From a virus, in the UHGV virus genome UHGV-0213395: a stretch of 43,313 nucleotides of DNA; one strand, given 5' to 3'. Under the pieces are notes generated by a model. It was given only the letters and a program-made list of their open reading frames with translations. It was not told where the DNA came from and did no database searches. A program made the position numbers and the translations under genes. Shown here in pieces: positions 6,030 through 43,255 of this stretch (within the stretch, counting starts at the first letter, position 1; every line of letters begins with the position of its first letter).

Positions 6030-7079
6030 TTAAGCACCGACACCAGTTACCAGGAAGGCAATCGGTACGTGCTTGCGGTCAACCACACGGTTCCAGTTGG
6101 AGGCGTTCGCCAGGTCCTGCCAGGAAGCAGAACGTGCGACAGTCTTGGTGCCGTTACCGGTGATTACTGCGCTGGTGAAGCTGTAACCAAACGGATGTAG
6201 CAACCAGGTCTTACGGGTCCACAGGGTTTCAACGCCGCCGCCGTTGCCGCGGGACGCTTCGCGCTCGTATTCCAGCGGGTTGGACGGAGAACCTTCACCG
6301 TAACCGATAGCGCCGTTGCCGAAGATGATGGAGATGAACTTACGGGTCTGGCCAGTGCCGACTACGGTCATGCTGTCGTCAACAATCACGCGGTAGCCCT
6401 GGTAGGTGGCGAACATGGTGTTGTTGTCCGCGTCACGGATGAAGTCGATAAGCTGCTGCTTACGTGCCTGCGCATAAACGAAGCTATGCATCGCGATAGC
6501 CCCCAGCACTTCACCGCCGTTGCCCATCAGAGCATCGCCCATAGTCTGGGTAGCGTCGATGAACGCGCCCGCATCGAAGCCCAGAGTAGCAGACACGTCG
6601 ATAACCATGTCGTTCTGCTTGTGGTAAGCATCGGTAGCAGCTACGTTGTCGTTGTACAGACCGAGCGCGGTAGCAATCAGACGGCGTTGTGCCTGGCGCT
6701 GCCAGAAGTTATCCAGACGGGACGCTACGGATTGCAGCGGGTTCTGGCTGGTCAGTTCGACAGTCAAATCCGCCTGACCGAAACCTTCGTTCAGGTATGC
6801 AACGCGGGCCATCATCTCACCGGTCTGCACGTTACGCGGGGTGGCGATGTCCTGGTATACATCGTTCGAGTAGTTAGGCTCGATAGAGGTATCAATCGCT
6901 TTCCAGAACGGAATATTAGCGACGTTGGACGGGCCGCGGGCAATCTCGGCAGCGTACGGGGTCGGGGTCAGAATACCAGACTGGAAGAACGCGGTTTTTT
7001 CTACCGGGTCCTCGGTCATATAAGACGCCAGGACCGGGATGTTGCCAGTTACGATATCGCCGATAGTGGTAATTGCCAT
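6030..7079 (-). CDS. major capsid protein (349 aa)
   Basis: Follows scaffold gene by 2 nt; size and position typical of HK97-fold capsid; followed by a terminator-like hairpin. Confidence 0.65.
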   Translation of the reverse strand: MAITTIGDIVTGNIPVLASYMTEDPVEKTAFFQSGILTPTPYAAEIARGPSNVANIPFWKAIDTSIEPNYSNDVYQDIATPRNVQTGEMMARVAYLNEGFGQADLTVELTSQNPLQSVASRLDNFWQRQAQRRLIATALGLYNDNVAATDAYHKQNDMVIDVSATLGFDAGAFIDATQTMGDALMGNGGEVLGAIAMHSFVYAQARKQQLIDFIRDADNNTMFATYQGYRVIVDDSMTVVGTGQTRKFISIIFGNGAIGYGEGSPSNPLEYEREASRGNGGGVETLWTRKTWLLHPFGYSFTSAVITGNGTKTVARSASWQDLANASNWNRVVDRKHVPIAFLVTGVGA

Positions 7080-8680: not shown

Positions 8681-8709
8681 TTGCACACCCCAATATAATA
8701 GGGTACTAT
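8681..8709 (+). promoter_or_regulatory. sigma70-type promoter TTGCAC-N17-TACTAT (conserved early promoter, copy 1)
   Basis: Near-identical ~33 bp to copies at 42872-42900 (+), 20239-20267 (-) and 19065-19093 (-); AGGAGG SD and ATG at 8737 downstream. Confidence 0.55.
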
Positions 8710-8736
8710 TCAGTTAACTTAAACAGGAGGTGAAAA

Positions 8737-8940
8737 ATGTATGCAATTTGCGAAGTAGTTCAAGAGTTCGATGAAGAGTTCGACGGTGACTTGTGCCGGG
8801 TTAAAAAGGTTCTGCAGGTTTTCCCTGACGCAATGTCTGCTTACAAGGCATTAGATATATTTGAACCTGGAAGATACGGGGATTATGACACTGTTCTGAG
8901 GGTTGTCCATGAGCAGGATTTAAACACAAGATTCCGTTGA
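8737..8940 (+). CDS. small acidic protein (67 aa), moron-like antisense gene
   Basis: Own promoter and AGGAGG SD; terminator at 8946-8966; antisense to head operon; lower GC than flanks. Confidence 0.6.
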   Translation: MYAICEVVQEFDEEFDGDLCRVKKVLQVFPDAMSAYKALDIFEPGRYGDYDTVLRVVHEQDLNTRFR

Positions 8941-15851: not shown

Positions 15852-15880
15852 AATATAATAGGGTCGTAGGTAATAGTCAA
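15852..15880 (-). promoter_or_regulatory. promoter TTGACT-N17-TATATT on minus strand
   Basis: Located between the strong terminator at 15902-15934 and the ATG at 15818; contains CCCTATTAT half-site related to the operator motif. Confidence 0.4.
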
Positions 15881-15901
15881 CTAGTCATTGCAGAAAATAG
15901 A

Positions 15902-19033: not shown

Positions 19034-19064
19034 ATTCTGTCTCTCCTCTCGTTTGTGTAAATGA

Positions 19065-19093
19065 ATAGTAGCCTATTCTATATTAGTGTGCAA
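19065..19093 (-). promoter_or_regulatory. conserved early promoter, copy 3 (TTGCAC-N17-TACTAT, minus strand)
   Basis: rc reads CTTGCACACTAATATAGAATAGGCTACTATTCA; same architecture as the other copies. Confidence 0.5.
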
Positions 19094-20204: not shown

Positions 20205-20238
20205 AACCCTCACTCCTCTGTCTCGTTTCGATAAGTGA

Positions 20239-20267
20239 ATAGTATCCTATTATGTTGGGGTGTGCAA
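20239..20267 (-). promoter_or_regulatory. conserved early promoter, copy 4 (TTGCAC-N17-TACTAT, minus strand)
   Basis: rc reads CTTGCACACCCCAACATAATAGGATACTATTCA, differing at about 2 positions from the plus-strand copies. Confidence 0.55.
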
Positions 20268-20626
20268 GAGAATAGTTACGTTGCCGTTGTGATTCTTTCG
20301 AAACTGTTGTGCCTTTATTCTTATTACTTGGTAACTAAAGGGCAGGCCCTAAGCCTGCCCAATAATCGTTACATTTTTACGGTTGCGAATCTACGGCACA
20401 TTAAGAAACAGTAGATATTTCAGCGGGTTACTTCTTTAAATGAGATTTAGATACACTTATCCTTAAACCACAAGGCAAGCATCTCAGCTGTCTGGGAGGG
20501 GTTGACGAATCCCTCGGGGAGGGTTCGTCAACTCCGTAATATATACAAGTCCCAAAACCATTATACAAACATGTGTCAAGAACTTTCAATAACTTTTTTG
20601 TAAAGATTAAATATTGCAGGGATTGG

Positions 20627-20655
20627 TTGCTTTTACATTCCCGCTATCCTATACT
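20627..20655 (+). promoter_or_regulatory. rightward promoter TTGCTT-N17-TATACT
   Basis: Sits about 30 nt upstream of AGGGGA SD and ATG 20687 of the first rightward gene. Confidence 0.45.
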
Positions 20656-20686
20656 CGGTTTCACTAAACAAACAGGGGATATAAAA

Positions 20687-20869
20687 ATGCAACATTACAT
20701 GACACAGAATGAGGTAGCCGAGCGTATCGGGGTGACACGTCAGACCATTAATAACTGGTTGCGCAGCGGCAAATTCCCTGACTGCTGTATTAAGGTTATG
20801 GGCCGCCGTTTACCGGGAACATTTGACCGTAATAAAGTCGAAGCATGGATTAAGGAGAACGTGAAATGA
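20687..20869 (+). CDS. small HTH DNA-binding protein (AlpA/MerR-type, 60 aa)
   Basis: MTQNEVAERIGVTRQTINNWLRSGKFP HTH signature; start moved to ATG 20687; first gene of rightward operon. Confidence 0.6.
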   Translation: MQHYMTQNEVAERIGVTRQTINNWLRSGKFPDCCIKVMGRRLPGTFDRNKVEAWIKENVK

Positions 20870-21225: not shown

Positions 21226-21354
21226 ATGACAAAGTTAATAGTTCCACAGCTACGCCGCCAGAAACACGGCGCTGACTTCTTCGCACCGGTAAAGATGAAC
21301 CGCGCAATGCGCCGTATGCAGGAAGCCTTAGAACGTGCGGAGAAAAAGAAATGA
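21226..21354 (+). CDS. small basic protein (42 aa), coupled to helicase-primase
   Basis: AAGGA SD; ATGA overlap with start of 21351 gene. Confidence 0.3.
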   Translation: MTKLIVPQLRRQKHGADFFAPVKMNRAMRRMQEALERAEKKK

Positions 21355-23585
21355 ATATTGTTTTTGCAACGCTGCGTAACACATTCGATAAAAACCCTGT
21401 AGCGCGTGAGATGCCGCTCGAGCAGTTTGTGGAGTATGTCTGCGATACATCGAAGCGTTTATCCGTGGACCCGTCATGGACTAAGGAAGAGTACGACGCG
21501 GCCAAGATTAAACAGAAAGCTATTGCGCCTGTTGGCGGTCGCCGTAAGAACGCTATTCTGGAAGACAGTGTGGTTAAGTTCGATTTTGACCATCTCAACC
21601 GTACTCAGTACCGCGACCTTACCCGCAAATTCAAGAACGCACCGTTCTTCAATATTCTGCATACAACGGCATCGCATCAGCATGTGTGTAAAAACGGAGA
21701 TTACGCTTTCCGCGTTCTGGTTCCAGCTCGCACGCCGTTTAACTCTAACGACGCGTGGATGGTGCAACGTGCTATTTGTGCAGAGTTAGAAATAGACGAA
21801 GCGTTGCGCGACCACTGCACGGAAGATGGCAACCGCCTTATCTACCTGCCGCACAAAGAGTCGAAGATAACGGTTACAGAAGGGCGTGTTATCCGTGCCG
21901 AGCGGTACATCAAGAAAGCCGAAGAGATGGGGTTGCGTAAGCGTGAGGCTAAAACACTTGCCGCTGATGAGCATGGGCTTAACGCGGATATAGCACACTT
22001 CTGCGAAGCCGAGCTTGGCCTTGACGCTTTATCTTCCGGGCGCGGGTACGAAGTGCCATGCCCTAACGAACATCTGCATACAGGCAAGGGCTCCACCAGC
22101 ATAATGCTCGACGGTAAAGAAGTGCGCTTTGTCTGCCAGCATACAAACAACGGCGCTTGCACCGAGCTTAACCGCCGACAGCATTTGGCCCTGCGTATGT
22201 GCGGCCTGCCAGACGAGCTTAACGTAGACAAGCAACCTATCAGCATTAACAGCATTCGTGCGGCTCTGCCTGATTTACCGGAAGAAGAGATTGAAGAACT
22301 ACACCGCACAGAGAACGAGGACCCAGTAACTTGCAGCCTCGACGACCTGGAAGACGACGAGGACTCAGAGGAGGACTCAGAGGGGGACGGGTTACCGGAG
22401 CCGGTAAAGGCTGATTTCGTCGTTGAGGGGTACATGCCGTCGGATTGTATCTGGGATATCGTCGGGGAATCTGGCACGTACAAATCGTTCTATACGCTGG
22501 GGATGATGTACCTCAGCGCCGCCGGGTACAGGTTTGCGGGGGCGGATACCCAGCGTTGCCACCATTTCTATATTGATGGTGAGGGTGGCGCAGCTACACG
22601 CACCCGTATTGATGCACTAGCGGCTAAATATGGCGGGGAAGGTAAAGATTATGTACACGTCATCGATATGGGCGAAGTCGGCAAACTTAAAAGCCTGATT
22701 AAGTTAATGCGCGAAACTGCTGGCGACGAGCCAATTGGCATGGTTGCGTTCGACACCCTTAACCAGACCCTGGCACTGACGATTGATAAGTTCGACGAGA
22801 ACAGTTCATCAACAGCAATCGGCATGGGTAAAGTTATCGCCATTCTGAAAGAAGTACGCGATGCAACTAAAGCCGCAGTAGGCGTTGTCCACCATACGCC
22901 GAAGGGTGGAAAGAAAGCACGCGGCAGTGGGGCGCTGTATGCGGGTGTTGACGTGGAACTGACAATCGAACGTGCAACCGACCGTCAAATAAACGTATAC
23001 CACTCGAAATTTAAGCACGGTCCTCAACAGAAAACGGTTGGCATGGTGCTGGAGTCTGTGCAGTTCCGCGAAGCTCCGCCGCCGAAAGAGTACCGTGCGG
23101 TTGAGTTCCTGGGGGGCACAGAAGAATACGGCACAATCGTAAACCTGGACCTTCCTGAACCACACAAGGCGCTTGTGTTGATGCCGTGGGGTTTCGAGCC
23201 GTTCAAAACTGACGAGGAGAAAGAGCGGGAAGAAGGGTTGACGAAAGAAGGTAAGCAAAAAGTAAAGGAAGAAGTTAAACGCGGCAGGGATGAAGTAAGG
23301 AAGGAGTCAATACTTTCGGCACTGGAAGACCTGCAACAGTCAGATGACACAGGTCGCGGTTTTACTCAGCAGCAGATAGTGGCTCGTTCCGGTGACTTCT
23401 CTGTGACTAACACCCATCTTGATAAAATGTTGAAAGATGGAGAACTAATGCTTGGTTGCGATGCTAACGGCGAAGTAGTACCGAGAACATATCGTATACC
23501 CGAAAGAATAGGGGATAGATTAAGGCCGAAGACACTATACGAACCAAATGAGATGCTGGTGGTGACAGAGGAGGATTTGGAATAG
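21351..23585 (+). CDS. DNA helicase-primase (primase-like N-terminal region with RecA/DnaB-like NTPase domain, 744 aa)
   Basis: Walker A GESGTYKS and DnaB/RepA-like region; acidic C-terminus ...VVTEEDLE. Confidence 0.7.
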   Translation: MNIVFATLRNTFDKNPVAREMPLEQFVEYVCDTSKRLSVDPSWTKEEYDAAKIKQKAIAPVGGRRKNAILEDSVVKFDFDHLNRTQYRDLTRKFKNAPFFNILHTTASHQHVCKNGDYAFRVLVPARTPFNSNDAWMVQRAICAELEIDEALRDHCTEDGNRLIYLPHKESKITVTEGRVIRAERYIKKAEEMGLRKREAKTLAADEHGLNADIAHFCEAELGLDALSSGRGYEVPCPNEHLHTGKGSTSIMLDGKEVRFVCQHTNNGACTELNRRQHLALRMCGLPDELNVDKQPISINSIRAALPDLPEEEIEELHRTENEDPVTCSLDDLEDDEDSEEDSEGDGLPEPVKADFVVEGYMPSDCIWDIVGESGTYKSFYTLGMMYLSAAGYRFAGADTQRCHHFYIDGEGGAATRTRIDALAAKYGGEGKDYVHVIDMGEVGKLKSLIKLMRETAGDEPIGMVAFDTLNQTLALTIDKFDENSSSTAIGMGKVIAILKEVRDATKAAVGVVHHTPKGGKKARGSGALYAGVDVELTIERATDRQINVYHSKFKHGPQQKTVGMVLESVQFREAPPPKEYRAVEFLGGTEEYGTIVNLDLPEPHKALVLMPWGFEPFKTDEEKEREEGLTKEGKQKVKEEVKRGRDEVRKESILSALEDLQQSDDTGRGFTQQQIVARSGDFSVTNTHLDKMLKDGELMLGCDANGEVVPRTYRIPERIGDRLRPKTLYEPNEMLVVTEEDLE

Positions 23586-23594
23586 GTAAAAAGA

Positions 23595-23613
23595 AAGGGG
23601 CTTTAAGCCCCTT
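23595..23613 (-). terminator. terminator hairpin at end of XRE regulator gene
   Basis: AAGGGGC-TTTAA-GCCCCTT; U-run on the minus strand; the regulator stop codon lies in the loop. Confidence 0.5.
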
Positions 23614-23818
23614 CACCTAACGCCAGCCACTTGGCGTCTACTTCCAGAACTTCCGCCAGTTTGAACAGCGTTGCCGGGCGGACGTCCTGAGTTACTCCAA
23701 GTGCCAGTTGGTTAATCGCGCCCTGGGAAACGCCGGTCAGGGCCGCCAAACGGCGCTGGGAGATGCCGAGTTCTTTGCGGCGTTGTTCTACACGGATGCC
23801 TAGTTCAGATGGTTGCAT
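23603..23818 (-). CDS. Cro/CI-type (XRE family) HTH transcriptional regulator (71 aa)
   Basis: GISQRRLAALTGVSQGAINQLALG HTH_XRE signature; AAGGAG SD; antisense and monocistronic within the replication module. Confidence 0.75.
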   Translation of the reverse strand: MQPSELGIRVEQRRKELGISQRRLAALTGVSQGAINQLALGVTQDVRPATLFKLAEVLEVDAKWLALGEGA

Positions 23819-23882
23819 GTCAATTACTCCTTAGTCAGTTGATATGTGAATAGTACCATATTAATTATTTTAGAAAAGCCCA

Positions 23883-23911
23883 TTGACATGTGAATAGTTC
23901 GCTATTATAGT
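23883..23911 (+). promoter_or_regulatory. promoter TTGACA-N17-TATAGT with AATAG-N4-CTATT operator-like palindrome in the spacer
   Basis: Consensus -35, 17-nt spacer, good -10; near-identical architecture at 26566-26594; drives the gene at 23943. Confidence 0.55.
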
Positions 23912-23942: not shown

Positions 23943-24443
23943 ATGTTAGAACAATTCTTAAAATTACTGGAACGTTTCGTAGTTGCACATGAACTGATTG
24001 CTGCGAACAGTGCGAAACAGTCAGCACAAGTTGCAGCGCCGTTAGAAGTAGAGACGGTAGTGTATACCAAAGAAGCGGTAGCTGAGTGCGAAAAAGAAGC
24101 AACAAAAGAAATCCCTGTTGAAGGTGAAGACATCGTTGACGCTAAACCAGCAGAAGAAGAGAAGCCGAAACGCAAGCCGCGTAAAGCTAAAGTAGAGGAG
24201 CCGACTCCAGAACCAGAAGAAGAGAAAGAAGAGGTCGATTACCAGTCTCTTCGTGACCAGATTCAGGCTATCGACGATGCAATTAACGAAGGTCCTAGCG
24301 ATGCTGCGTGCGACGATTCCGATGAACTGCTGGAGGAGTTCACCGGTAAGAAAATGAAGATTGCCGCGATTAAAGACGAAGACCTGGCTGAATACCTGAA
24401 ACGCCTGACGGCGATTAAGAACAAGTATTTCGAAGAAGAATAA
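23943..24443 (+). CDS. highly acidic low-complexity protein (166 aa)
   Basis: GAGAGGAGAG SD; Glu/Asp/Lys-rich central region; terminator at 24452-24470. Confidence 0.6.
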   Translation: MLEQFLKLLERFVVAHELIAANSAKQSAQVAAPLEVETVVYTKEAVAECEKEATKEIPVEGEDIVDAKPAEEEKPKRKPRKAKVEEPTPEPEEEKEEVDYQSLRDQIQAIDDAINEGPSDAACDDSDELLEEFTGKKMKIAAIKDEDLAEYLKRLTAIKNKYFEEE

Positions 24444-24451
24444 TTTATCTG

Positions 24452-24470
24452 GCGGCCTCCGGGCCGCTTT
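24452..24470 (+). terminator. rho-independent terminator
   Basis: GCGGCC-TCCG-GGCCGC followed by TTT. Confidence 0.5.
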
Positions 24471-24486
24471 AACAGAGGGTCGTAAT

Positions 24487-24759
24487 ATGATTTACCAACT
24501 CTACCGAGGTATTGACCGACGGGATAACACAGAGGCGTTGTGGCTGTTGCGTGCGCCGTCCGGCGCGCACCAGATGGAAGAGATGGCCTACCTCGGCAAA
24601 GTACCGAAGCCGAAAGATATAGGCCGTCACCTGTCGCAGATTAAGCGCACGACATTCGTTAAAAGTGACTTTTATGTCTTCGAGTCGATGTATAGCTGGG
24701 CGATGCATTGTGACCACAAGACACGACATTTAATTGACCAGTGGGAGAACCGGGTATGA
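24487..24759 (+). CDS. hypothetical protein (90 aa)
   Basis: AGAGGG SD; intact ORF. Confidence 0.55.
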   Translation: MIYQLYRGIDRRDNTEALWLLRAPSGAHQMEEMAYLGKVPKPKDIGRHLSQIKRTTFVKSDFYVFESMYSWAMHCDHKTRHLIDQWENRV

Positions 24760-25103
24760 CGGATAAATGGTGGCTTAATCTGCGTAGTGGTGACAAGGTT
24801 TACACCGTCGGTGACCGCAGAAAGAACAGCGGCGTAGCTACTGTGCTACAAAACGGCAAAAAGTACATCCACATTGCGCATGAAGCTCGAGCACTCCGCG
24901 TGAATAAATCGTCTGGAAGACTTGAGGATTACCCGAAAACATTAATATACAAAAGCGAAAAGCATCACATGGCCACTGTTGACGCAAGACGTAAGTTCGC
25001 AGGAATGCTGCAACAGTTAAGCGACTTACATCGTGATGATTCTTTCATCCCCACAGAAGAACAGCTACAGGCATTAAACTTGTATTTGGAGAGTTTACGA
25101 TGA
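24756..25103 (+). CDS. hypothetical protein (115 aa)
   Basis: Start moved to ATG 24756 (ATGA overlap with upstream stop). Confidence 0.55.
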   Translation: MTDKWWLNLRSGDKVYTVGDRRKNSGVATVLQNGKKYIHIAHEARALRVNKSSGRLEDYPKTLIYKSEKHHMATVDARRKFAGMLQQLSDLHRDDSFIPTEEQLQALNLYLESLR

Positions 25104-26380
25104 TTCTAAAAGAACGCGGCGGCAATAACGACGTACACGCCTTACTGTCACCGTCAGGTGCTAAAAAGTGGTTAACCTGCGCCGCATCACTGGCCTGTGA
25201 AAAGGATATTCCTGACACGTCCGGTAAAGCTGCGATATTAGGCACGGCAATGCACACCATAGCCGAGATACACCTTAACCAGTACATCAAAGGCACTGCG
25301 TTGCCATTAGAACGTGAAGTCGGCGCTTATGTACTGGACGAAGGAAAAGGCCAGATTAAGGCGTTAATCAGCCCTATGAAAGGCGCGGTACTGATTACGG
25401 CTGACATGATTGAACAGGTTCGCAAGTACACCGACTACTGCAAAGCGATTATCGATGTAGCGACTTACGCCAAGCTGGAAATGCGTGTCAATCTTACTGA
25501 GGTATTGCATCCGGGCTACAAAGTACCTGCTGAGAGTGAAGAAGGTAAGGAGGATGATTTAGAGACATTCGGGACAGCCGACTTAGTGGCGGTTATAGAA
25601 GGCTTTACAGGTGAAAGTAACTCCGCGATGCTCATTATCGGCGACCTTAAAACAGGACGGCATCGCGTCGAAGCGAAAGAAAACAAGCAGCTTATGCTTT
25701 ACGCTCTCGGTGTTTATCGTCGACTCAAGAGACGTTATAACATAACAACCGTTCGTCTGGTCATCTTCCAGCCTTACGCTGGGGGCGCGACAGAGTGGGA
25801 CATCTCGGTTGAAGGACTGGAACTGTTCGCTAAGTTCGCACAGAAACGCGCGCTGTTAGCGCTTGATGCGTATTTCCGTGGCAAGAAGAACCTGAAAGCG
25901 TCGGACTTCAAGCCATCGGTAGATGGTTGTCAGTGGTGCCGGTTCTCTGAACAATGCGCTGCGCGTACAAAGACGGTTAATTCTGTACTGGCGGAAGAAC
26001 TGGAAGACGACTTTGTGCTGGAACTGACGCCGGAGCAACTCGTAGCTGAGTATGAGAAGTTGCCGCTGTTGCGCCAGCACATCGACAAGGTTGAGAAAGC
26101 TATGGCGGCCGCGTTGCATTCAGGTAAGAAAGTTCCTGGTTACAAGTTGGTTGAAGGCCGCCCAGGTAATCGTGCATGGAAAGACGCGGAGAAAGTAACA
26201 GAACTCTACGGCGACAAGCTGACTAAAGAAGTGCTCATGTCACCTACCGAAGCTGTTAAAGTCATACCGGAAGAAGAACTGAAAGACTTCATTACCCGTA
26301 AGCCAGGCGCACCATGTGTCGCAACGGCAGACGACAAACGTCCTGAGTGGAATCAGGTAACAGAGGAGGATTTGGAATGA
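25100..26380 (+). CDS. PD-(D/E)XK nuclease with Cys cluster (RecB/Cas4-like recombination exonuclease, 426 aa)
   Basis: GTADLV ... IGDLKTG nuclease motifs; cysteines at WLTCAASLAC and CQWCRFSEQC; C-terminus ...QVTEEDLE. Confidence 0.65.
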   Translation: MILKERGGNNDVHALLSPSGAKKWLTCAASLACEKDIPDTSGKAAILGTAMHTIAEIHLNQYIKGTALPLEREVGAYVLDEGKGQIKALISPMKGAVLITADMIEQVRKYTDYCKAIIDVATYAKLEMRVNLTEVLHPGYKVPAESEEGKEDDLETFGTADLVAVIEGFTGESNSAMLIIGDLKTGRHRVEAKENKQLMLYALGVYRRLKRRYNITTVRLVIFQPYAGGATEWDISVEGLELFAKFAQKRALLALDAYFRGKKNLKASDFKPSVDGCQWCRFSEQCAARTKTVNSVLAEELEDDFVLELTPEQLVAEYEKLPLLRQHIDKVEKAMAAALHSGKKVPGYKLVEGRPGNRAWKDAEKVTELYGDKLTKEVLMSPTEAVKVIPEEELKDFITRKPGAPCVATADDKRPEWNQVTEEDLE

Positions 26381-26580
26381 TTCAAGTAAATGAAATGCCC
26401 ACAGATAAAGATTTTGTGATGATATGGCGCTGGGGCGGTTATATCCATTCGGAATCGTTTACGTTCCTGAACGGCACGATGGTGCGATACAACCATGTGG
26501 AGGATGAATTCGAACCCGTTGATATGAATGATTTCGAGAACATAGTCCGTATTGCGAAATTTTATTTGACACCTGAATAG
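26377..26580 (+). CDS. hypothetical protein (67 aa)
   Basis: ATGA overlap with nuclease stop; the GAGGAGGA SD lies inside the nuclease C-terminal codons. Confidence 0.5.
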   Translation: MIQVNEMPTDKDFVMIWRWGGYIHSESFTFLNGTMVRYNHVEDEFEPVDMNDFENIVRIAKFYLTPE

Positions 26581-26594
26581 TTAGCTATTATAGT
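26566..26594 (+). promoter_or_regulatory. promoter TTGACA-N17-TATAGT with operator-like palindrome (second copy)
   Basis: TTGACACCTGAATAGTTAGCTATTATAGT; drives the SSB-like gene at 26648. Confidence 0.5.
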
Positions 26595-29873: not shown

Positions 29874-30022
29874 CAATGTTTGTATTTAGGACCATAGTAA
29901 CCATGCTCGCACTGTTACTCGGTGCGGGAATAGCTGCTATGTTCTGTTACGGCCTGTTCTTTCAGTTTGCCGGTGTTGCCATTCTAGGCTGGGTTTTCCT
30001 TACCTGGATGCTGCGGTCATGA
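29870..30022 (+). CDS. small membrane protein (50 aa, 2 predicted TM segments)
   Basis: Hydrophobic throughout; ATGA overlap with VRR-NUC start. Confidence 0.3.
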   Translation: MTMFVFRTIVTMLALLLGAGIAAMFCYGLFFQFAGVAILGWVFLTWMLRS

Positions 30023-30351
30023 CTAAAGAGGGCCGCATCCAGAAATACGCAAAAGAGCGATTCGAGGCCATTGGTGGCCTCGTTCGTAAACTTTCCTACG
30101 AAGGACGTTCAGGCGCTCCTGACCTGCTGGCAATTCTACCCGGCGGCATCGTCTGGTTCGTCGAGGTGAAGAAAGACGAAAACACTAAGCCAGACCCGCA
30201 CCAGCTACGGGAACACGAGCGTATACGTAAACGTGGCGCAAATGTTTTTGTCGTTGGTTCGATAAAACAGATTGACACCCTAATAGCAGACTATTATAGT
30301 AAGCACATACCCCAACAATATAAGGAATTTAGAAATGAAACACGAATATGA
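30019..30351 (+). CDS. VRR-NUC domain nuclease (110 aa)
   Basis: PDLLAI ... VEVKK PD-(D/E)XK core in a ~100 aa protein. Confidence 0.65.
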   Translation: MTKEGRIQKYAKERFEAIGGLVRKLSYEGRSGAPDLLAILPGGIVWFVEVKKDENTKPDPHQLREHERIRKRGANVFVVGSIKQIDTLIADYYSKHIPQQYKEFRNETRI

Positions 30352-34841: not shown

Positions 34842-37409
34842 TTAATTAAAACCATTGCTGAATCCGTCGGAGAAACCGCTGCCGTATGGCGCGACGCCGT
34901 CGTATTTATAGAATCCGTCATCATAGTTGTAGCCCGTAATCTTGACCGTGCGGTCGTCGCCGGGGTCGATTGAAGAAACAACTATCTTCTGAGCATTATG
35001 CCTTGCTTCGTTGCCGAATGAAAACTCAGTTTTTAGCGCACTATTCCCCGTGTAGATTGCCTCCTCCGGCGCGGAGAGCATAATCACTTCGCGGTCGTGG
35101 CTTCCTTTGATAACAGAAATACTCTGCACAGAGCCGTCGCGCTTCTTAAGAATGATGGAATGGTCATCACCAGGAGTAAACGTAACCGGCTGCGACAGCG
35201 TAAGCGTAAGCCCATTAACGGCGACAACATAACCATCCTGCGGCGCGATGCGGGAGCCTTTAACCACGCTGATTACGCCGCCGGGAGTAGCTAGAGCGCC
35301 TTCTTCGGTAGCTTCGAACTCTACGACAACTTTACTTAACGCATTGCGCTGGTAGCGACGCCACGCCAGCCAGTACGCTTGCTGATAGTTACGTACACCC
35401 TTCGATTCGTACTCCTCGGTGTTCGCGCCGAGTTCTTCCGGGATATAAATCGTCTCCTGTACGTTTGTATCCGGGTCAATGTACGAGAACGACAGGCTAT
35501 CGTAGGTTGTCGAATCGTTGAACGTGCGCGTCCATTTCTCCGTACCGGTCGTTTTGCTGCGGTGGGTGAAAACCATCTCAGGCCCCGCAACAGGACGGTC
35601 GAATCGCAGCATAATATCAGCACCTTTACGGTATGCCGTACAAAACACGGCTTCCGCGATGGTCTGAACGATGTCTTGCATGGTTGTGTCGTAGTCGTCG
35701 AATGTGTAGCAGAACTGCCCGGCTAATTCACTGTCAAAATACGACTCAATTTCTTCCTGCACGGCAAGTAACTTGTCCATATTTGCCGTTGTCAGTTCCA
35801 GATTACCCACCACAGGGTCACGCGCCAGCCTGATTAGCGACTGCACGGCCTGAGTGTTCGGTGTCATTACCGTATCGAATACGCCGTTACCTAAGTATTT
35901 GTAGCACATCTCGGTAGCAATCATGCGCAGTTCCGGTTCTGACACCTCCGCGGCACGTGGCGTTTGTTTACGAGCGCAGTGTACGGTGGTTCTGTTGCCG
36001 TAGTGTGGGGTTGTGTCCAGAGACTGCCCGTACAGATTAGTGAAAGTAACCTCATCACTAACAGTACCTTCAAAATCTTTATCGGTGTCGGAAACACGAC
36101 GCATACGGGCGCGGAATCTGGAAGCAGTTGGTAAACTTCCGTAAAGAGTAATACCTGTGTAATCCGTGTTCCGGCCTGTTACGGTTCCTTGTACAGTAAA
36201 TATATCACCTACAGGCTGTTTCAGCTCATCAACCATCTGGTATTGCAGTTCCACTGTCACTGAAGCGCGGTTATAGTCGCCGTTGTATTTATACATGCCG
36301 TTGCTGGCGGCGACATTGGCTACAACACGGTCGACAGTACCGCGGGTGATGTACGCCCATTCAGAGAGAGAAGCCGCGTAAGTGTCCGCCGGGCCTATAA
36401 GATGGTTACCCTCTTCACCTATAAACCACACAGACGCCCCTAGCTGGTTCCATACTGATTGATTTGTACTGACGTCCACAATAAGGGTGGTTTCACTAAC
36501 CGAAAGAACCGTGTACCTCCCGTCCAGGTTAACCTCATTACCCAAAGACCCTGGGGTTGTATCTGCATATACGTTATCGAAGTATGCCAGGTCCCCGACC
36601 GCCAAAAACTCATCGAAACCAGCGTCATCGCCTACTACAACGCCGGTTGTTCCCTGCCGCTGGACAGTGTAGTCCTGCACGTCTATAGCGATATCATTAG
36701 GGGCGGGAAGAACAGCGCCATCGACATCGGCGTTTTTAAATGTAACGTACAATTTCTGGTCTATAGGGTCGCCGATATGCAATTGTGGTGTGCTGGTGTT
36801 ATTCGGCGAAGTGTAAGGAGAATACACCGTCACCGACGAGCCAGTTATCTCGCTGATTCGGGTATCTGCCTCAGTTACACCGTCTTCCTCAATATGCAGA
36901 TACCCTCGACCGGCGTCATAGTACGCATATTCAATAAGCGCACCCGCGGCATTAAACACCTTATATGTCTGCATCAGGTCATTGGGGATGGTCTGCACTG
37001 TCCCGCAGATATCATAGGAACGCTCATAAGGTCGTGGCTTGTTTGAGCGGTCGGTGAGACTGTTGTTAGGCGACGTAGCCTGATTGTTGGTAGCGGAATA
37101 ATTAGCGTTAGCCGCTGTGTTTAGCCCGAACAATTTGGCGATTGGCTTAAGGATGAAACTGAATACACTCCCGATGGCGTCGCCAATGCCGCCGCCAGCG
37201 CCCTCAATAATGTGGTACACGGCGTCCTCGTCTTTGAGCGCGTCGAAGTCGTCTGTAACATCAGTATCATCACCAATCTCGCCAAGATAGACGCGTACCG
37301 GAACGCCGTCCGGGATACGGTTAACGACAAACTCCATCGGCATCCCGACGTGTTTTGTACGGTTGAAAGCGCCATCAGCGTTTCGCGTGTAGTGCAGGAT
37401 TATCGCCAA
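34842..37409 (-). CDS. central tail fibre / host specificity protein (lambda J-like, 855 aa)
   Basis: Large tail-tip gene following the K-like peptidase gene; lambda-type order. Confidence 0.6.
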   Translation of the reverse strand: MAIILHYTRNADGAFNRTKHVGMPMEFVVNRIPDGVPVRVYLGEIGDDTDVTDDFDALKDEDAVYHIIEGAGGGIGDAIGSVFSFILKPIAKLFGLNTAANANYSATNNQATSPNNSLTDRSNKPRPYERSYDICGTVQTIPNDLMQTYKVFNAAGALIEYAYYDAGRGYLHIEEDGVTEADTRISEITGSSVTVYSPYTSPNNTSTPQLHIGDPIDQKLYVTFKNADVDGAVLPAPNDIAIDVQDYTVQRQGTTGVVVGDDAGFDEFLAVGDLAYFDNVYADTTPGSLGNEVNLDGRYTVLSVSETTLIVDVSTNQSVWNQLGASVWFIGEEGNHLIGPADTYAASLSEWAYITRGTVDRVVANVAASNGMYKYNGDYNRASVTVELQYQMVDELKQPVGDIFTVQGTVTGRNTDYTGITLYGSLPTASRFRARMRRVSDTDKDFEGTVSDEVTFTNLYGQSLDTTPHYGNRTTVHCARKQTPRAAEVSEPELRMIATEMCYKYLGNGVFDTVMTPNTQAVQSLIRLARDPVVGNLELTTANMDKLLAVQEEIESYFDSELAGQFCYTFDDYDTTMQDIVQTIAEAVFCTAYRKGADIMLRFDRPVAGPEMVFTHRSKTTGTEKWTRTFNDSTTYDSLSFSYIDPDTNVQETIYIPEELGANTEEYESKGVRNYQQAYWLAWRRYQRNALSKVVVEFEATEEGALATPGGVISVVKGSRIAPQDGYVVAVNGLTLTLSQPVTFTPGDDHSIILKKRDGSVQSISVIKGSHDREVIMLSAPEEAIYTGNSALKTEFSFGNEARHNAQKIVVSSIDPGDDRTVKITGYNYDDGFYKYDGVAPYGSGFSDGFSNGFN

Positions 37410-37765
37410 AATTCAATCTCCGTGTACGTGTCTCTGAGATCCGCCAGCCTGTCAAGCCGTACCTGACGGGACGCAAGCTCGCAATGGCTCACCATCCCGT
37501 CGAAGTAAACTCCTGCGTGCCACACGATACGACCGCCGCGGCGATACCCCATAAGCACCGCACAGAAGTTTTCAGGCTTATCAATTTTTGTAAGTCCCTT
37601 CGTGTTGCGATGTCCTTCGTCGAACGCTTCGTTAATCGCCGTTGGGCTTGCAACGTCGAACGCCGGGGTTTCTAACCCGGCATCGGCCCGTACAATGCGA
37701 ACGTGATGCCAGCAATTGCGCTTGCGAAAGTCGTAAGGTATGCCCGTGTAGTCGTTAATATTCAT
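37400..37765 (-). CDS. NlpC/P60-family tail assembly protein (lambda K-like, 121 aa)
   Basis: Cys-His-containing NCWHHV ... HAGVY arrangement; position between L-like and J-like genes. Confidence 0.55.
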   Translation of the reverse strand: MNINDYTGIPYDFRKRNCWHHVRIVRADAGLETPAFDVASPTAINEAFDEGHRNTKGLTKIDKPENFCAVLMGYRRGGRIVWHAGVYFDGMVSHCELASRQVRLDRLADLRDTYTEIEFWR

Positions 37766-38277
37766 GTGGTCAACAGGCCGCGTAATAACGGTATCTCTTT
37801 AGGTGTCATCAGTATACCAGTGCTTCGCTGGTTCAGCATAGGTGTACCAACATCCGCGGAGAACTCGCCCTTCTCCTGGTTGATGGCCTGCAACTCATAC
37901 ATGACAGGACCGTCAGCCGGATAAGACAGGTCTGTGCTGACGTAACGACGGAAGACGAACTTCGGCAACTCGGTGTTACTCATAGGGATTTTATCCATCT
38001 CATCGTCAAGTTGATTGAGAATATCCGGTAAAGTAAACGTAGTCGTCTGGTCCATATCACTGTTGTTAGCCGCCCCCGACGCCTCCATCGGGGTTGGCTC
38101 GAACGTGATAATTTCGCCTGTCTCCAGTGTTGCCGTGAGTTCCTGTAGCCCACGAACAAGATAGTACGTCTTTGACAACAACGGGTGGCTGATTTGCAAC
38201 GTGATGTAGTCCATCTCGCCGTCGGGATTTGAGGCCAGCTTACGGCGATAGGCGGCTTCTACAGATTCCTGGCTCAT
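37762..38277 (-). CDS. minor tail protein (lambda L-like position, 171 aa)
   Basis: Position in tail-tip cluster; overlapping stop/start with neighbours. Confidence 0.45.
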   Translation of the reverse strand: MSQESVEAAYRRKLASNPDGEMDYITLQISHPLLSKTYYLVRGLQELTATLETGEIITFEPTPMEASGAANNSDMDQTTTFTLPDILNQLDDEMDKIPMSNTELPKFVFRRYVSTDLSYPADGPVMYELQAINQEKGEFSADVGTPMLNQRSTGILMTPKEIPLLRGLLTT

Positions 38278-38280
38278 AAA

Positions 38281-39681
38281 TTAACCGTCCACATTAAAAT
38301 CAATACGAGTGATGTACTTGCTACCCCACGCGGAATCAGCCTGCGGGATGGTTGCGTAATCATCTGCCGCCAGAACGTTTACCACAGAGCCGTCGGAATA
38401 GGTAATGTCGATGCTTGTCGCGCCGTTCATTGCCACTTTTGCTGATGCCGTTGGACGAGTTACCGGTGACTCCTCGGTCACTATCGGGGAGGAGGCAAAC
38501 TCTGAAGGCTCCATCTGGATTAGGGCTATAATGAACCCACTGACATCATCCCCTGTGAAGGTGAGGGAGTTAGACGGAGACAACATGTTTATCTGCGAAT
38601 AAATCAATCCGCCGGAGTCGTTAGTGTCCGCTGACATTGAAACGTGATACCACCCACCACCAAGATTGCTTACGAACGACCTTGAGGTGTCGCCTGATAT
38701 CAAATAGCCGGAGGCTAAGTCAACATAGGCATACTGGAAATTATCTAAAGCGGCTCGGTTGCCGATGACTACCGCTGCCGACTGGTACTCATCTGCTTTT
38801 ATAATAGCACTAATAGAGTATCTTGTTTCTTGTTCTGGGGCCTCTGCCTTGTTTATATAATGGTTACCTGATACCGACGTTGCGGTTAATTTAGCAGCAT
38901 AAGTTTCTTGGAATAACGCCAAAGAACTCGCCGTGGTTGTTGTTCTGGTACGTGAAAATGATGTAGATAGTAAGTTGTTAGAATGTTCTACCACATTGGT
39001 AGCAGCCTTTTCCGGCGGCACACGCCCAACTGCAGTTCCGTCAATAAACGTAAGAGGCCATTCATTAGTGGCGGACTGCACAAGATTGCCGTTGCGGTTG
39101 ATGTAATAAACCTGCGGCCCTTCATACACAATGCGGCTATCAAGAGTCGACGCCAGAAGGTTAATCGGCGGATATCCGGCAGGGCCTTCATTACTCCAGA
39201 TTCGTGGAAACGTTGATTGCGCGGTTCCGTAGGCTTTAAGGAAACACCCCAGCCCGTCACCATAGCAACCATACAAATCCGGCAGATTATTGACAAGACA
39301 CTGGTTCTCGAGGTCCTGGAACGGGGATTTCTCGGCGGTTGCCGTGAAAGTAATCGTCCAGTTAATGCCGTCTTCGGTGGACTCCGCGATGGTGGACGTG
39401 ATGGTTACCTGATAATCTTCAATACCCATGCCGAAGTCATGCGCCATCCAGAAACTTGACGCGCCGCCGTCCACTTTCTCAAGGAACGACAGGAACGCCT
39501 GTCGCCCTAGTGCAGATGTAATCAGAGTTACGCTTATTGGGAACACATCATAATACGTGTCACGGCCTTGACGCACTCCGCCACCGGCTAAATCTACACT
39601 CCAGACGTTGTTGCGTCTGGTCATTGAGTAGCCTTTCGATACCACCGGCTTAAGGCTACGTGGGAAATATAAGTCGCTCAT
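38281..39681 (-). CDS. tail tip protein (distal tail protein candidate, 466 aa)
   Basis: First gene after tape measure, 1-nt overlap with its stop. Positional call. Confidence 0.5.
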   Translation of the reverse strand: MSDLYFPRSLKPVVSKGYSMTRRNNVWSVDLAGGGVRQGRDTYYDVFPISVTLITSALGRQAFLSFLEKVDGGASSFWMAHDFGMGIEDYQVTITSTIAESTEDGINWTITFTATAEKSPFQDLENQCLVNNLPDLYGCYGDGLGCFLKAYGTAQSTFPRIWSNEGPAGYPPINLLASTLDSRIVYEGPQVYYINRNGNLVQSATNEWPLTFIDGTAVGRVPPEKAATNVVEHSNNLLSTSFSRTRTTTTASSLALFQETYAAKLTATSVSGNHYINKAEAPEQETRYSISAIIKADEYQSAAVVIGNRAALDNFQYAYVDLASGYLISGDTSRSFVSNLGGGWYHVSMSADTNDSGGLIYSQINMLSPSNSLTFTGDDVSGFIIALIQMEPSEFASSPIVTEESPVTRPTASAKVAMNGATSIDITYSDGSVVNVLAADDYATIPQADSAWGSKYITRIDFNVDG

Positions 39682-42871: not shown

Positions 42872-42900
42872 TTGCACACCCCAATATAATAGGGTACTAT
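42872..42900 (+). promoter_or_regulatory. conserved early promoter, copy 2 (TTGCAC-N17-TACTAT)
   Basis: Identical over ~33 bp to the copy at 8681-8709; GAGG SD and ATG 42929 downstream. Confidence 0.55.
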
Positions 42901-42928
42901 TCACATGTAACTTACTGAGGAAATAATT

Positions 42929-43255
42929 ATGCGTAAATTAGTACTAGCTCTGGGTTTTATGTCTTTTGCTACTTTTGGGGCCCCGTGCGAACAGGTATTT
43001 AGTGAATCTGTTCTTATGACTTCTGGTGTGCTTGATAAAGCCGACCCTACTATTGTAAAGGCATTTAAGGACTCCACAGTCCGTGAATGCGAGGCCGCCG
43101 TAGATGTCGGTAAATCGGGCCTACCTCCGCAAGCCGTAACATACACGGTAATACGTTCGGTAGAGAAAACCGGAGACGCGTTTTACAGCCTTCTGACAGC
43201 CACCCGTCTGCAAATGGTAATGACTGGATGGGCAATAGGCGCAGAAAGTAAATAG
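42929..43255 (+). CDS. small secreted/periplasmic protein (108 aa, signal peptide)
   Basis: MRKLVLALGFMSFATFGA then PCEQ: cleavable signal peptide without lipobox; two Cys in the mature part; lower GC than flanks. Confidence 0.6.
   Translation: MRKLVLALGFMSFATFGAPCEQVFSESVLMTSGVLDKADPTIVKAFKDSTVRECEAAVDVGKSGLPPQAVTYTVIRSVEKTGDAFYSLLTATRLQMVMTGWAIGAESK

What the first reader, a model, noticed from the sequence alone, without database searches (positions are those of the whole stretch)
23603..23818. Lone antisense Cro/CI-type regulator inside the replication operon of an apparently virulent phage
A classic XRE-family HTH gene is transcribed against the flow of the replication operon, monocistronic with its own SD and terminator, and no integrase or other lysogeny genes were recognised. 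It may be a Cro-like early-to-middle switch, a remnant of a temperate ancestor's immunity region, or an anti-defence-associated regulator.
Basis: partly seen in the sequence, partly recalled or inferred. Interest (0 to 1): 0.55.

Follow-up and report, generated by a model that had tools for sequence, protein, structure and literature searches.

The report
Cro-like regulator of a virulent Kagunavirus
A small, well-conserved 434-Cro-type DNA-binding gene in a strictly lytic E. coli phage is real and already annotated, and it probably turns phage promoters down through a 14-bp palindrome found in nearly all of them, though binding is untested.

Summary
Window 23603-23818 (-) encodes a 71-aa XRE/HTH_3 protein with its own Shine-Dalgarno site and terminator, antisense to the flanking replication genes. 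The window is a Kagunavirus, 99.7% identical to Escherichia phage Bas72, which has no annotated integrase or CI.

The gene is not a novelty: it is annotated as regulator, repressor or Cro in about 490 phage records. It is not a decaying relic either. All 37 Kagunavirus copies are intact, pN/pS is 0.06, and the recognition helix is invariant.

Its closest solved relatives are 434 Cro and 434 repressor. It lies at a junction of two transcription units next to a divergent promoter region. In sister genera it is co-oriented with, and upstream of, the primase gene.

New here: the palindrome AATAG-N4-CTATT is the only over-represented palindrome in the genome (12 sites against 1.1 expected). It has the 14-bp 434-operator geometry and sits in the core of nearly every sigma-70-like promoter. 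Two copies bracket the regulator's own promoter.

Best model: a Cro-like lytic turn-down repressor with autoregulation.

Main caveat: the palindrome co-occurs phylogenetically with a second small HTH protein (HTH_17, 20687-20869), so the binder is unproven. Interest is modest.

The parts
23603..23818 (-). XRE/434-Cro-type regulator gene, 71 aa
   Evidence: ORF. Pfam HTH_3 E 3.9e-13. 434 Cro E 8.5e-6 over residues 6-68. Five-helix AF2 model, mean pLDDT 78. Foldseek 434 Cro TM 0.70-0.76 at 40% identity. pN/pS 0.06 in 37 genomes.
23827..23832 (-). Shine-Dalgarno AAGGAG, 8 nt before the ATG
   Evidence: Read directly from the sequence. Invariant in 36 Kagunavirus sequences.
23585..23614 (-). Intrinsic terminator of the regulator gene: hairpin 23594-23614 plus U-tract 23585-23593. 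It overlaps the stop codon and lies just after the primase stop.
   Evidence: Terminator scan flags the minus strand only. The hairpin folds on both strands at -18 to -20 kcal/mol, but only the minus-strand RNA has a U-tract.
23849..23862 (.). O1, imperfect palindrome AATAGTACCATATT (1 mismatch). It overlaps the regulator's own promoter or transcription start.
   Evidence: It is centred at +4.5 of TTCACA-16-TAAAAT, or it contains a class-B-type -10 TACTAT. Nearly invariant in 37 loci.
23893..23906 (.). O2, perfect palindrome AATAGTTCGCTATT in the spacer of the strong plus-strand promoter
   Evidence: Arms are invariant while the centre and upstream flank vary in 36 sequences.
23883..23911 (+). 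Class A promoter TTGACA-17-TATAGT for the 23943-26580 unit (gp49-like gene through the exonuclease)
   Evidence: 11 of 12 consensus match.
23867..23894 (-). Candidate promoter of the regulator, TTCACA-16-TAAAAT. An alternative is a class-B-like -10 TACTAT at 23850-23855.
   Evidence: 10 of 12 consensus match. Comparison with class B promoters.
26576..26589 (.). Perfect palindrome in the class A promoter of the SSB-to-DNA-polymerase unit
30282..30295 (.). Perfect palindrome in the class A promoter of the methyltransferase/helicase unit. It lies inside the 3' end of ORF 30019-30351.
20238..20251 (.). Perfect palindrome over the -10 of the class B promoter of the leftward small-gene unit
19064..19077 (.). 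Perfect palindrome over the -10 of a second leftward class B promoter
8697..8710 (.). Perfect palindrome over the class B promoter of a 67-aa plus-strand gene (8737-8940) that is antisense in the head module
42888..42901 (.). Perfect palindrome over the class B promoter of the plus-strand unit 42929-43255, which continues as 7-1137 (exonuclease)
15872..15885 (.). One-mismatch palindrome over the -35 of TTGACT-17-TATATT (-), upstream of the small genes, terminase and structural genes
   Evidence: The same mismatch is conserved in Jersey and in 27 Kagunavirus loci.
20687..20869 (+). HTH_17 (Xis/AlpA/MerR-like) 60-aa protein, the rival candidate binder of the palindrome
   Evidence: Pfam HTH_17 E 1.6e-8. 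PHROG_66. Found only in Jerseyvirus and Kagunavirus. 80% identical between the two genera.
21351..23585 (+). Replicative primase-helicase, convergent with the regulator gene
   Evidence: It has no plus-strand U-tract terminator.

Best explanation
The gene encodes a single-domain, 434-Cro-type HTH protein that works as a lytic-cycle repressor in a phage with no lysogeny apparatus.

Shown:
- The gene is real, expressed as its own unit, conserved and under purifying selection.
- Its fold and sequence are closest to 434 Cro and 434 repressor.
- A 14-bp palindrome AATAG-N4-CTATT, with constrained arms and a free centre, sits in the core of nearly all sigma-70-like promoters of the phage.
- Two copies lie in the regulator's own control region.

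Inferred:
- The protein binds these palindromes as a dimer.
- At O2 it occludes the strong promoter of the adjacent replication unit.
- At the imperfect O1 it represses its own promoter once it has accumulated.
- At the other perfect sites it turns down early and middle promoters, as Cro does at PL and PR.
- The late (terminase and structural) promoter and its own promoter carry weaker, one-mismatch sites, so they are spared for longer.
- Plus-strand transcripts from the primase gene have no proper terminator. They probably read antisense through the gene and add transcriptional interference.

Its lone antisense position comes from an inversion of the primase block in the Jerseyvirus/Kagunavirus lineage.
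For: - Protein: HTH_3 E 3.9e-13. The best PDB sequence matches are 434 Cro and 434 repressor over the full length. The AF2 model has five helices, and Foldseek hits 434 Cro at 40% identity.
- Selection: 37 of 37 copies intact, pN/pS 0.06. Recognition helix S31-Q37 is essentially invariant (one A34V change) across clusters of 77-100% identity.
- Palindrome abundance: 12 sites with at most 1 mismatch against 1.08 expected, reached by 0 of 100 shuffles. It is the only over-represented 5-N-5 palindrome: 7 perfect copies, next best 3.
- Palindrome location: every perfect copy coincides with a promoter-like site.
- Constraint: across 7 orthologous sites in 27-37 genomes the arms deviate at 1.2% per position, the centre at 11% and the flanks at 14.7%.
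- Register: the palindrome occurs at four registers relative to the -10, centred at -33.5, -18.5, -15.5 and -12.5. This fits steric repression, which is register-insensitive, better than activation.
- Own control region: O1 and O2 bracket the regulator's own promoter.
- From knowledge of the family (434 structures, from memory): 434 operators are also 14 bp (ACAA-N6-TTGT). The two Gln residues that read A1 and A4 in 434 repressor are conserved here (Q32, Q37), and A1 and A4 are conserved in AATAG. Gln29 is replaced by Gly, and positions 2-3 differ.
Against: - No binding data exist.
- SE1 and VLCpiS11a carry homologues at 40-43% identity, with recognition helices resembling Jersey's, yet have no over-represented palindrome.
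- The palindrome is identical in Jerseyvirus and Kagunavirus, although the regulator is only 48% identical and differs in the recognition helix: SQGAINQ against SQSLITH. From memory, 434 Cro and 434 repressor are similarly diverged and share operators.
- The HTH_17 protein has exactly the phyletic range of the palindrome and is 80% conserved.
- A repressor with sites in all promoters, including candidate late ones, needs graded affinities that have not been shown.
- The one published Kagunavirus time course is too coarse to help. Mapping its gene numbers onto this gene is my inference from gene order.
Confidence: 0.5

Rival explanations
1. The promoter-embedded palindrome is bound by the early HTH_17 protein (20687-20869) or by another clade-specific factor. 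It would act as a repressor or as an AlpA/Q-like promoter-loaded factor. The XRE protein would then have only a local role, such as autoregulation or control of the adjacent unit through a different, unrecognised site, or a role tied to the primase module.
For: - HTH_17 occurs in 443 phage records, all in the Jerseyvirus/Kagunavirus clade, which is exactly where the palindrome is found.
- It is 80% identical between the genera, matching the invariance of the palindrome.
- XRE homologues exist in genera that lack the palindrome.
- XRE (48%) and primase (52%) are jointly the most diverged proteins between the genera, against 85-98% for other replication proteins. This suggests a separately exchanged module.
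- An HTH gene is reported as early in phage K1B4. By gene order I infer it is the HTH_17 gene.
Against: - Small HTH_17/Xis/Cox-type proteins usually bind arrays of direct repeats, not single two-fold sites (family knowledge, from memory).
- There is no palindrome at the HTH_17 promoter, whereas two flank the XRE promoter.
- The co-occurrence rests on a single clade, which amounts to one evolutionary event.
- The promoters concerned are near-consensus and the site register varies, which argues against activation.
Confidence: 0.25
2. The protein is aimed mainly at other genomes. It could repress the early promoters of superinfecting sibling phages (transcriptional exclusion), or host or prophage genes, rather than time the phage's own programme.
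For: - Operators in all promoters would make trans-expressed protein a broad inhibitor of related phages.
- XRE is a diversified locus between genera, as immunity determinants are.
- Jerseyviruses carry other temperate-type accessory genes, Ant and Imm-like (PMC9409062; Jersey gp22).
Against: - The palindrome is the same in both genera, so there is no immunity-type specificity difference.
- No host targets were examined.
- This is compatible with, rather than exclusive of, the best explanation.
Confidence: 0.1
3. It is a non-functional relic of a temperate ancestor's immunity region.
For: - It has distant homology to a lambdoid cro that sits beside cI in a Yersinia phage: 34% identity, E 1e-6.
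- The phage has no integrase or CI.
Against: - 37 of 37 copies are intact and pN/pS is 0.06.
- The recognition helix is invariant.
- The SD site, promoter and terminator are conserved.
- The gene is present in 488 records across several genera.
Confidence: 0.03
4. It is a controller (C) protein or an antitoxin-type XRE, governing the phage methyltransferase or a toxin partner.
For: C.AhdI, C.BclI, HipB and HigA are among the structural and sequence neighbours. The phage encodes a DNA methyltransferase.
Against: - No restriction endonuclease or toxin gene is adjacent.
- The gene is monocistronic.
- The methyltransferase is 6.7 kb away.
Confidence: 0.03

Closest known systems
Phage 434 Cro (and the 434 repressor N-terminal domain)
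   Same: - Same length, 71 aa, in a single five-helix HTH_3 domain.
- Full-length alignment at E 8.5e-6, with 37-40% identity in structural alignments.
- The candidate operator has the same 14-bp geometry: conserved outer arms and a free centre.
- The first Gln of the recognition helix is conserved.
   Different: - There is no cI partner, no OR/OL triplets and no lysogeny genes.
- The second recognition residue is Gly, not Gln.
- The half-site is AATAG, not ACAA.
- Single operators are scattered over about 9 promoters, instead of tandem sites at two promoters.
Lambda/P22 Cro as a functional class (lytic turn-down repressor of early promoters)
   Same: - Small repressor next to a divergent promoter region and upstream of replication genes in sister genera.
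- Operators overlap strong early promoters.
- Autoregulation is predicted.
   Different: The phage is obligately lytic. The regulon appears to cover nearly all promoters. The function is inferred, not shown.
Restriction-modification controller (C) proteins, e.g. C.AhdI and C.BclI
   Same: - Small XRE proteins with similar structures.
- They are timing devices that use a strong and a weak palindromic site at their own promoter. O2 (perfect, centred at -39.5) and O1 (imperfect, centred at +4.5) resemble that logic.
   Different: There is no endonuclease gene and no co-transcribed target. O1 and O2 are 44 bp apart, not adjacent C-boxes.
Annotated homologues in Guernseyvirinae (Bas72_0050, Jersey gp50, Golestan 'CRO', phage G 'DicA')
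   Same: This is the same gene, 98.6% identical to Bas72_0050. It is syntenic in Jersey.
   Different: Those are annotation labels only. No paper I could find describes function, operators or the promoter palindrome.

Membership tests
XRE / Pfam HTH_3 (PF01381) | Profile match above the curated gathering score | tested here: met
   49.7 bits against a cut-off of 23, E 3.9e-13, residues 11-65.
434 Cro/repressor-type DNA-binding domain | Five-helix all-alpha fold superposable on 434 Cro | tested here: met
   The AF2 model has helices 5-17, 21-28, 32-39, 48-57 and 62-66, mean pLDDT 78. Foldseek: 2cro TM 0.70/0.76, 1pra 0.75/0.77, probability 1.00. The same search also hits SinR, HipB and C proteins equally well, so the fold alone does not single out 434.
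434 Cro/repressor-type DNA-binding domain | Significant full-length sequence similarity to 434 Cro or repressor | tested here: met
   phmmer E 8.5e-6 (Cro, residues 6-68 against 4-64) and 1.1e-5 (repressor). These are the top natural hits in the PDB.
434 Cro/repressor-type DNA-binding domain | Gln-Gln pair at the start of the recognition helix | tested here: not met
   The first Gln (Q32) is invariant. The second position is Gly in Kagunavirus and Ser in other genera.
Cro (as opposed to CI) class | Single DNA-binding domain with no C-terminal oligomerisation or peptidase domain | tested here: met
   71 aa, all covered by the HTH domain.
Cro (as opposed to CI) class | Binds pseudo-symmetric operators overlapping early promoters and represses them | not testable with these tools
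   Candidate operators exist. Binding and repression need EMSA or footprinting, reporters, or ChIP.
Temperate-phage immunity region (cI, operators, cro plus integration module) | Divergently transcribed CI-type repressor next to cro | tested here: not met
   The divergent neighbour is a 166-aa acidic protein of PHROG 3127 (unknown function) with no Pfam hit. Bas72 has no CI annotated.
Temperate-phage immunity region (cI, operators, cro plus integration module) | Integrase and attachment site in the genome | tested here: not met
   There is no integrase among the 82 CDS of Bas72 or the 69 of Jersey. attP was not searched for separately.
R-M controller (C) proteins | Located upstream of, and co-transcribed with, a restriction endonuclease gene, with C-boxes at its own promoter | tested here: not met
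   The gene is monocistronic with its own terminator, and no endonuclease partner is present.
Type II antitoxins of XRE type (HigA/HipB) | Adjacent co-transcribed toxin gene | tested here: not met
   No co-oriented neighbour: both flanking genes are on the other strand.

The most novel reading that the evidence does not exclude
A single 434-Cro-like protein is the master timer of an obligately lytic siphovirus that has no RNA polymerase or sigma factor of its own. By binding one 14-bp operator built into the core of virtually every phage promoter, it shuts early and middle transcription in order and leaves late transcription running. The sites are perfect at early and middle promoters, and one mismatch off at its own and the late promoter. 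This would be a 'Cro-only' genetic circuit. It would also make the protein a portable, phage-wide off-switch for the Kagunavirus and Jerseyvirus phages used in therapy and in the BASEL collection.
Probability: 0.35. Interest if true: 0.6.

Novelty: new member of a known kind. Interest (0 to 1): 0.35.

Why it matters
Guernseyvirinae (Jerseyvirus, Kagunavirus) are among the most frequently isolated Salmonella and E. coli therapy phages, and they are now part of the BASEL model collection. Their transcriptional programme is essentially unknown.

If the model is right, one small protein and one 14-bp site explain how host RNA polymerase is scheduled across the whole genome. That would give three practical things:
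- a simple handle for engineering, because the promoters would be repressible;
- a way to build synthetic immunity to these phages;
- a reason not to read 'repressor' annotations in these phages as a sign of temperate behaviour.

If the model is wrong, the palindrome still marks the phage's promoter set and points to the HTH_17 protein instead.

Tried and rejected
- **Co-variation test across genera.** I looked for a different over-represented palindrome in phages with diverged homologues (SE1, VLCpiS11a). Exhaustive 5- and 6-nt-arm enumerations and inspection of all SE1 intergenic regions found none. The test neither confirms the XRE link nor gives an alternative operator.
- **One-mismatch palindrome enumeration.** GC-rich coding repeats dominated it and it was uninformative.
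- **Alignment-based locus search.** It failed for lack of conserved stretches. The single-protein search returned almost only Kagunavirus contigs.
- **Word-indexed protein search.** It returned only close relatives on phage-sized contigs and no prophage context.
- **K1B4 transcriptome paper.** It classifies one HTH gene as early and a 'specific DNA binding' gene as middle. The supplements held only host gene tables, so the mapping to XRE or HTH_17 stays inferred.
- **Literature.** Searches for promoter, operator or repressor work on these phages found nothing specific.
- **Rfam.** The scan of the window found nothing.
- **Rejected readings.** I rejected CRP and ArgR boxes as explanations for the TGTGAAT... 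flank, by eye against consensus sequences recalled from memory. I treated the 9-nt inverted repeat 23816-23824 / 23882-23890 as probably chance.

Full report
**What the window is.** An 8-kb stretch around the finding is 99.7% identical to Escherichia phage NicoleGrasset_Bas72. It matches 449 phage records, essentially all Kagunavirus and Jerseyvirus of the subfamily Guernseyvirinae. In Bas72 the ORF in question is Bas72_0050, 'transcriptional regulator'. None of the 82 annotated CDS is an integrase or a CI-type repressor. The same holds for Salmonella phage Jersey, where the gene is gp50 in the same position. A published analysis of a Jerseyvirus likewise concluded that it lacks the functions needed for lysogeny, despite a few temperate-type accessory genes (PMC9409062).

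**The observation.**
- ORF 23603-23818 (-) encodes 71 aa. It matches Pfam HTH_3 at E 3.9e-13.
- AAGGAG lies 8 nt before the ATG.
- A hairpin at 23594-23614 overlaps the stop codon and is followed by a U-tract only on the minus strand. The regulator therefore has a proper intrinsic terminator. The convergent primase-helicase gene (21351-23585, +) does not, so plus-strand transcripts plausibly read antisense through the regulator gene (inference).
- Both neighbours are on the plus strand.

The one correction is that the gene sits at the junction of two transcription units, not inside one.

**Is it a live gene?** tblastn finds it in 488 phage records. In 37 Kagunavirus genomes from IMG/VR plus the window, every copy is an intact 71-codon ORF. 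Mean pS is 0.22, pN is 0.013, and the ratio is 0.06. Across protein clusters of 77-100% identity, helix 2 and the recognition helix (S31-Q37) are essentially invariant (one A34V change), while the termini vary. This rules out a decaying relic.

**What kind of protein?**
- The best solved-structure matches by sequence are 434 Cro (71 aa, E 8.5e-6, residues 6-68 against 4-64) and the 434 repressor DNA-binding domain.
- An AlphaFold2 model has five helices, mean pLDDT 78.
- Foldseek returns the 434 repressor domain, 434 Cro (40% identity, TM 0.70-0.76), SinR, HipB, and the controller proteins C.AhdI and C.BclI.
- The nearest homologue outside Guernseyvirinae in the phage collection is the cro of a lambdoid Yersinia phage. 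It sits next to cI, with cII, O and P downstream (34% identity).

It is thus a Cro-sized member of the 434 branch of the XRE family.

**Genomic logic.**
- In Cornellvirus-like phage SE1 and in Klebsiella phage VLCpiS11a, the homologue (40-43% identity) is not antisense. It is co-oriented with and immediately upstream of the primase-helicase gene. It is divergent from the gp49-like, exonuclease, SSB and polymerase genes, which is the position cro holds in lambdoid phages.
- In Jerseyvirus and Kagunavirus the primase block is inverted. It is headed by an extra 60-aa HTH_17 protein (20687-20869) found only in these two genera. This leaves the XRE gene alone and convergent with primase. The 'lone antisense' look is therefore a lineage-specific rearrangement.
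- Between Kagunavirus and Jersey, XRE (48%) and primase (52%) are by far the most diverged proteins of the region. Polymerase is 97% identical, SSB 98%, helicase 93%, exonuclease 85% and HTH_17 80%.

**The control region and a genome-wide palindrome.**
- The 124-bp region between the regulator and the next gene holds a 25-nt direct repeat 44 bp apart. It also holds a near-consensus plus-strand promoter, TTGACA-17-TATAGT, and a minus-strand candidate, TTCACA-16-TAAAAT.
- Each repeat contains a 14-bp palindrome of the form AATAG-N4-CTATT. O2 (23893-23906) is perfect. O1 (23849-23862) has one mismatch.
- The pattern occurs 12 times in the window with at most one mismatch, against 1.08 expected, and none of 100 shuffles reached 12.
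- An unbiased count of all 5-N(0-10)-5 palindromes shows it is the only over-represented one: 7 perfect copies against at most 3 for any other.
- All seven perfect copies sit in promoter-like sequences:
  - three 'class A' promoters of the rightward replication units, TTGACA-N4-palindrome-ATAGT, palindrome centred at -18.5 (23893, 26576, 30282);
  - four 'class B' promoters, TTGCAC...TACTAT with the -10 inside the palindrome, centred at -12.5 (20238 and 19064 leftward; 8697 and 42888 for two small antisense units).
- A one-mismatch copy overlaps the -35 of TTGACT-17-TATATT upstream of the small-gene, terminase and structural block (15872).
- On the minus strand, O1 is a class-B-type core (AATATGGTACTATTCAC) with a poor -35, placed 31 nt before the regulator's ATG, as in the other class B promoters. 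Whichever minus-strand promoter is used, O1 covers its -10 or its start site, and O2 lies at about -39.5.

**Is the palindrome a protein site?**
- In 36 distinct Kagunavirus versions of the control region, the arms are invariant. The four central bases, and the 4-5 bases between the -35 and the palindrome, vary and even change length.
- Over seven orthologous sites in 27-37 genomes, the arms deviate from the majority at 1.2% per position, the centre at 11% and the flanks at 14.7%.
- Jersey has the same palindrome at orthologous promoters, as TAATAG-N4-CTATTA: 7 sites against 1.25 expected. Across the two genera it occupies four registers relative to the -10.
- A register-free element with constrained arms and a free centre inside RNA polymerase's footprint is what a dimeric repressor operator looks like.
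- In 2.9 million IMG/VR contigs, the class A operator-promoter pattern was found in 49 stretches, on 31 distinct contigs. Nearly all are phage-sized (about 24-45 kb) contigs already seen in the regulator search; two were new (35.7 and 5.8 kb) and were not examined.

**Who binds it?**

For the XRE protein:
- The site has the geometry of 434 operators: 14 bp, conserved outer bases, uncontacted centre (from knowledge of the 434 structures).
- The residues equivalent to 434 repressor Gln28 and Gln33, which read A1 and A4, are conserved (Q32, Q37), and A1 and A4 are shared by ACAAG and AATAG. Gln29 is replaced by Gly, and positions 2-3 differ. This is inference from family knowledge, not a test.
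- Two sites bracket the protein's own promoter, as expected for an autoregulated repressor.

Against the XRE protein:
- SE1 and VLCpiS11a have homologues but no over-represented palindrome.
- The regulator is only 48% identical between genera that share the same palindrome, and its recognition helices differ. From memory, 434 Cro and 434 repressor are similarly diverged and share operators, which softens this point.
- The HTH_17 protein has exactly the phyletic range of the palindrome and is 80% conserved.

Against the HTH_17 protein:
- Small Xis/Cox-type HTH proteins usually bind direct-repeat arrays.
- There is no palindrome at its own promoter.
- The co-occurrence amounts to a single evolutionary event.

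I put XRE at about 0.5, HTH_17 or another factor at about 0.25, and other roles for XRE at the remainder.

**Mechanism proposed (inferred).**
1. Early in infection, host RNA polymerase fires the strong class A and class B promoters and, weakly, the regulator's promoter.
2. The protein accumulates and occupies the perfect sites. This turns down the leftward early units, the three replication units and the two antisense accessory units.
3. The one-mismatch sites at its own promoter (O1) and at the terminase/structural promoter are filled last. This gives autoregulation and relative sparing of late transcription.
4. O2 at about -39.5 could also stimulate the regulator's promoter, as CI at OR2 or C proteins do. 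This step is speculative.
5. Read-through from the primase unit may add antisense interference.

The only published time course for a Kagunavirus (K1B4) is too coarse, and its gene numbering is only inferentially mappable. It calls one HTH gene early and a 'specific DNA binding' gene next to the AAA (primase) gene middle.

**Comparison and novelty.** The gene is a member of the XRE/HTH_3 family and of its 434-like structural branch. It behaves positionally like cro, but it is not part of an immunity region: there is no CI, no integrase and no tandem OR/OL. It is already annotated in hundreds of genomes. I found no paper that assigns it a function or describes the promoter palindrome. A Cro-like regulator in a virulent phage is not surprising to a specialist. 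The promoter-wide operator is a useful, testable addition, but it is unproven.

Noticed in passing
window 20214-20686: A 470-bp low-GC region (the GC-skew minimum of the window) lies between the leftward and rightward units. It holds a strong minus-strand promoter (TTGAAA-18-TATAAT, 20589-20560), a terminator-like hairpin (20340-20360, -) and a long hairpin at about 20497-20535. The short ORFs annotated here in Bas72 (0055, 0056) overlap these signals and look doubtful. It could be a leader or small RNA, or the replication origin. Rfam found nothing.
   Followed up: partly
window 21351-23818 against L003 (Jersey) 35909-38327: The regulator (48%) and the primase-helicase (52%) are jointly the most diverged proteins between Kagunavirus and Jerseyvirus, whereas polymerase, SSB and helicase are 93-98% identical. 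This suggests the two convergent genes are exchanged or evolve as one module.
   Followed up: partly
window 8737-8940 (+), and 42929-43255 continuing as 7-1137 (+): Two plus-strand units are embedded antisense in the head and tail gene blocks. One is a 67-aa protein. The other is a 108-aa protein plus the DNA repair exonuclease. Each has its own nearly identical class B promoter with a perfect palindrome (TTGCACACCCCAATATAATAGGGTACTATTCA).
   Followed up: partly
L047 (SE1) 6410-6541: In the Cornellvirus-like phage SE1, a terminator-like hairpin follows the regulator and the next small gene. A near-consensus promoter (TTGACT-18-TATAAT) then fires back antisense into them. Convergent transcription against the regulator may therefore be a conserved feature despite the different gene order.
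   Followed up: no
window 24756-25103 (+): A 115-aa protein matches the Pfam 'Phage ProQ C-terminal-like domain' just below the cut-off (26.6 against 27 bits, E 1e-5), downstream of the O2-controlled promoter.
   Followed up: no
window 23943-24443 (+): The first gene under the O2-controlled promoter encodes a 166-aa, very acidic, Glu/Lys-rich protein (PHROG 3127, unknown function, no Pfam hit). It is 75% identical in Jersey and recognisable in SE1.
   Followed up: no
window 23816-23824 and 23882-23890: A perfect 9-nt inverted repeat (CATGTCAAT / ATTGACATG) links the regulator's start codon with the -35 of the plus-strand promoter, 57 nt apart. It is probably chance in a region of this size.
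   Followed up: no
palindrome flanks, window sites against L003 sites: The base just outside one arm differs by genus. Kagunavirus sites mostly read TG-AATAG on one side: G at O1, O2, 26576, 20238 and 19064. All Jersey sites read T-AATAG ... CTATT-A, which makes a 16-bp perfect palindrome. That position is as constrained as the arms in Kagunavirus (1.4% deviation). It might track the difference in the regulators' recognition helices.
   Followed up: partly
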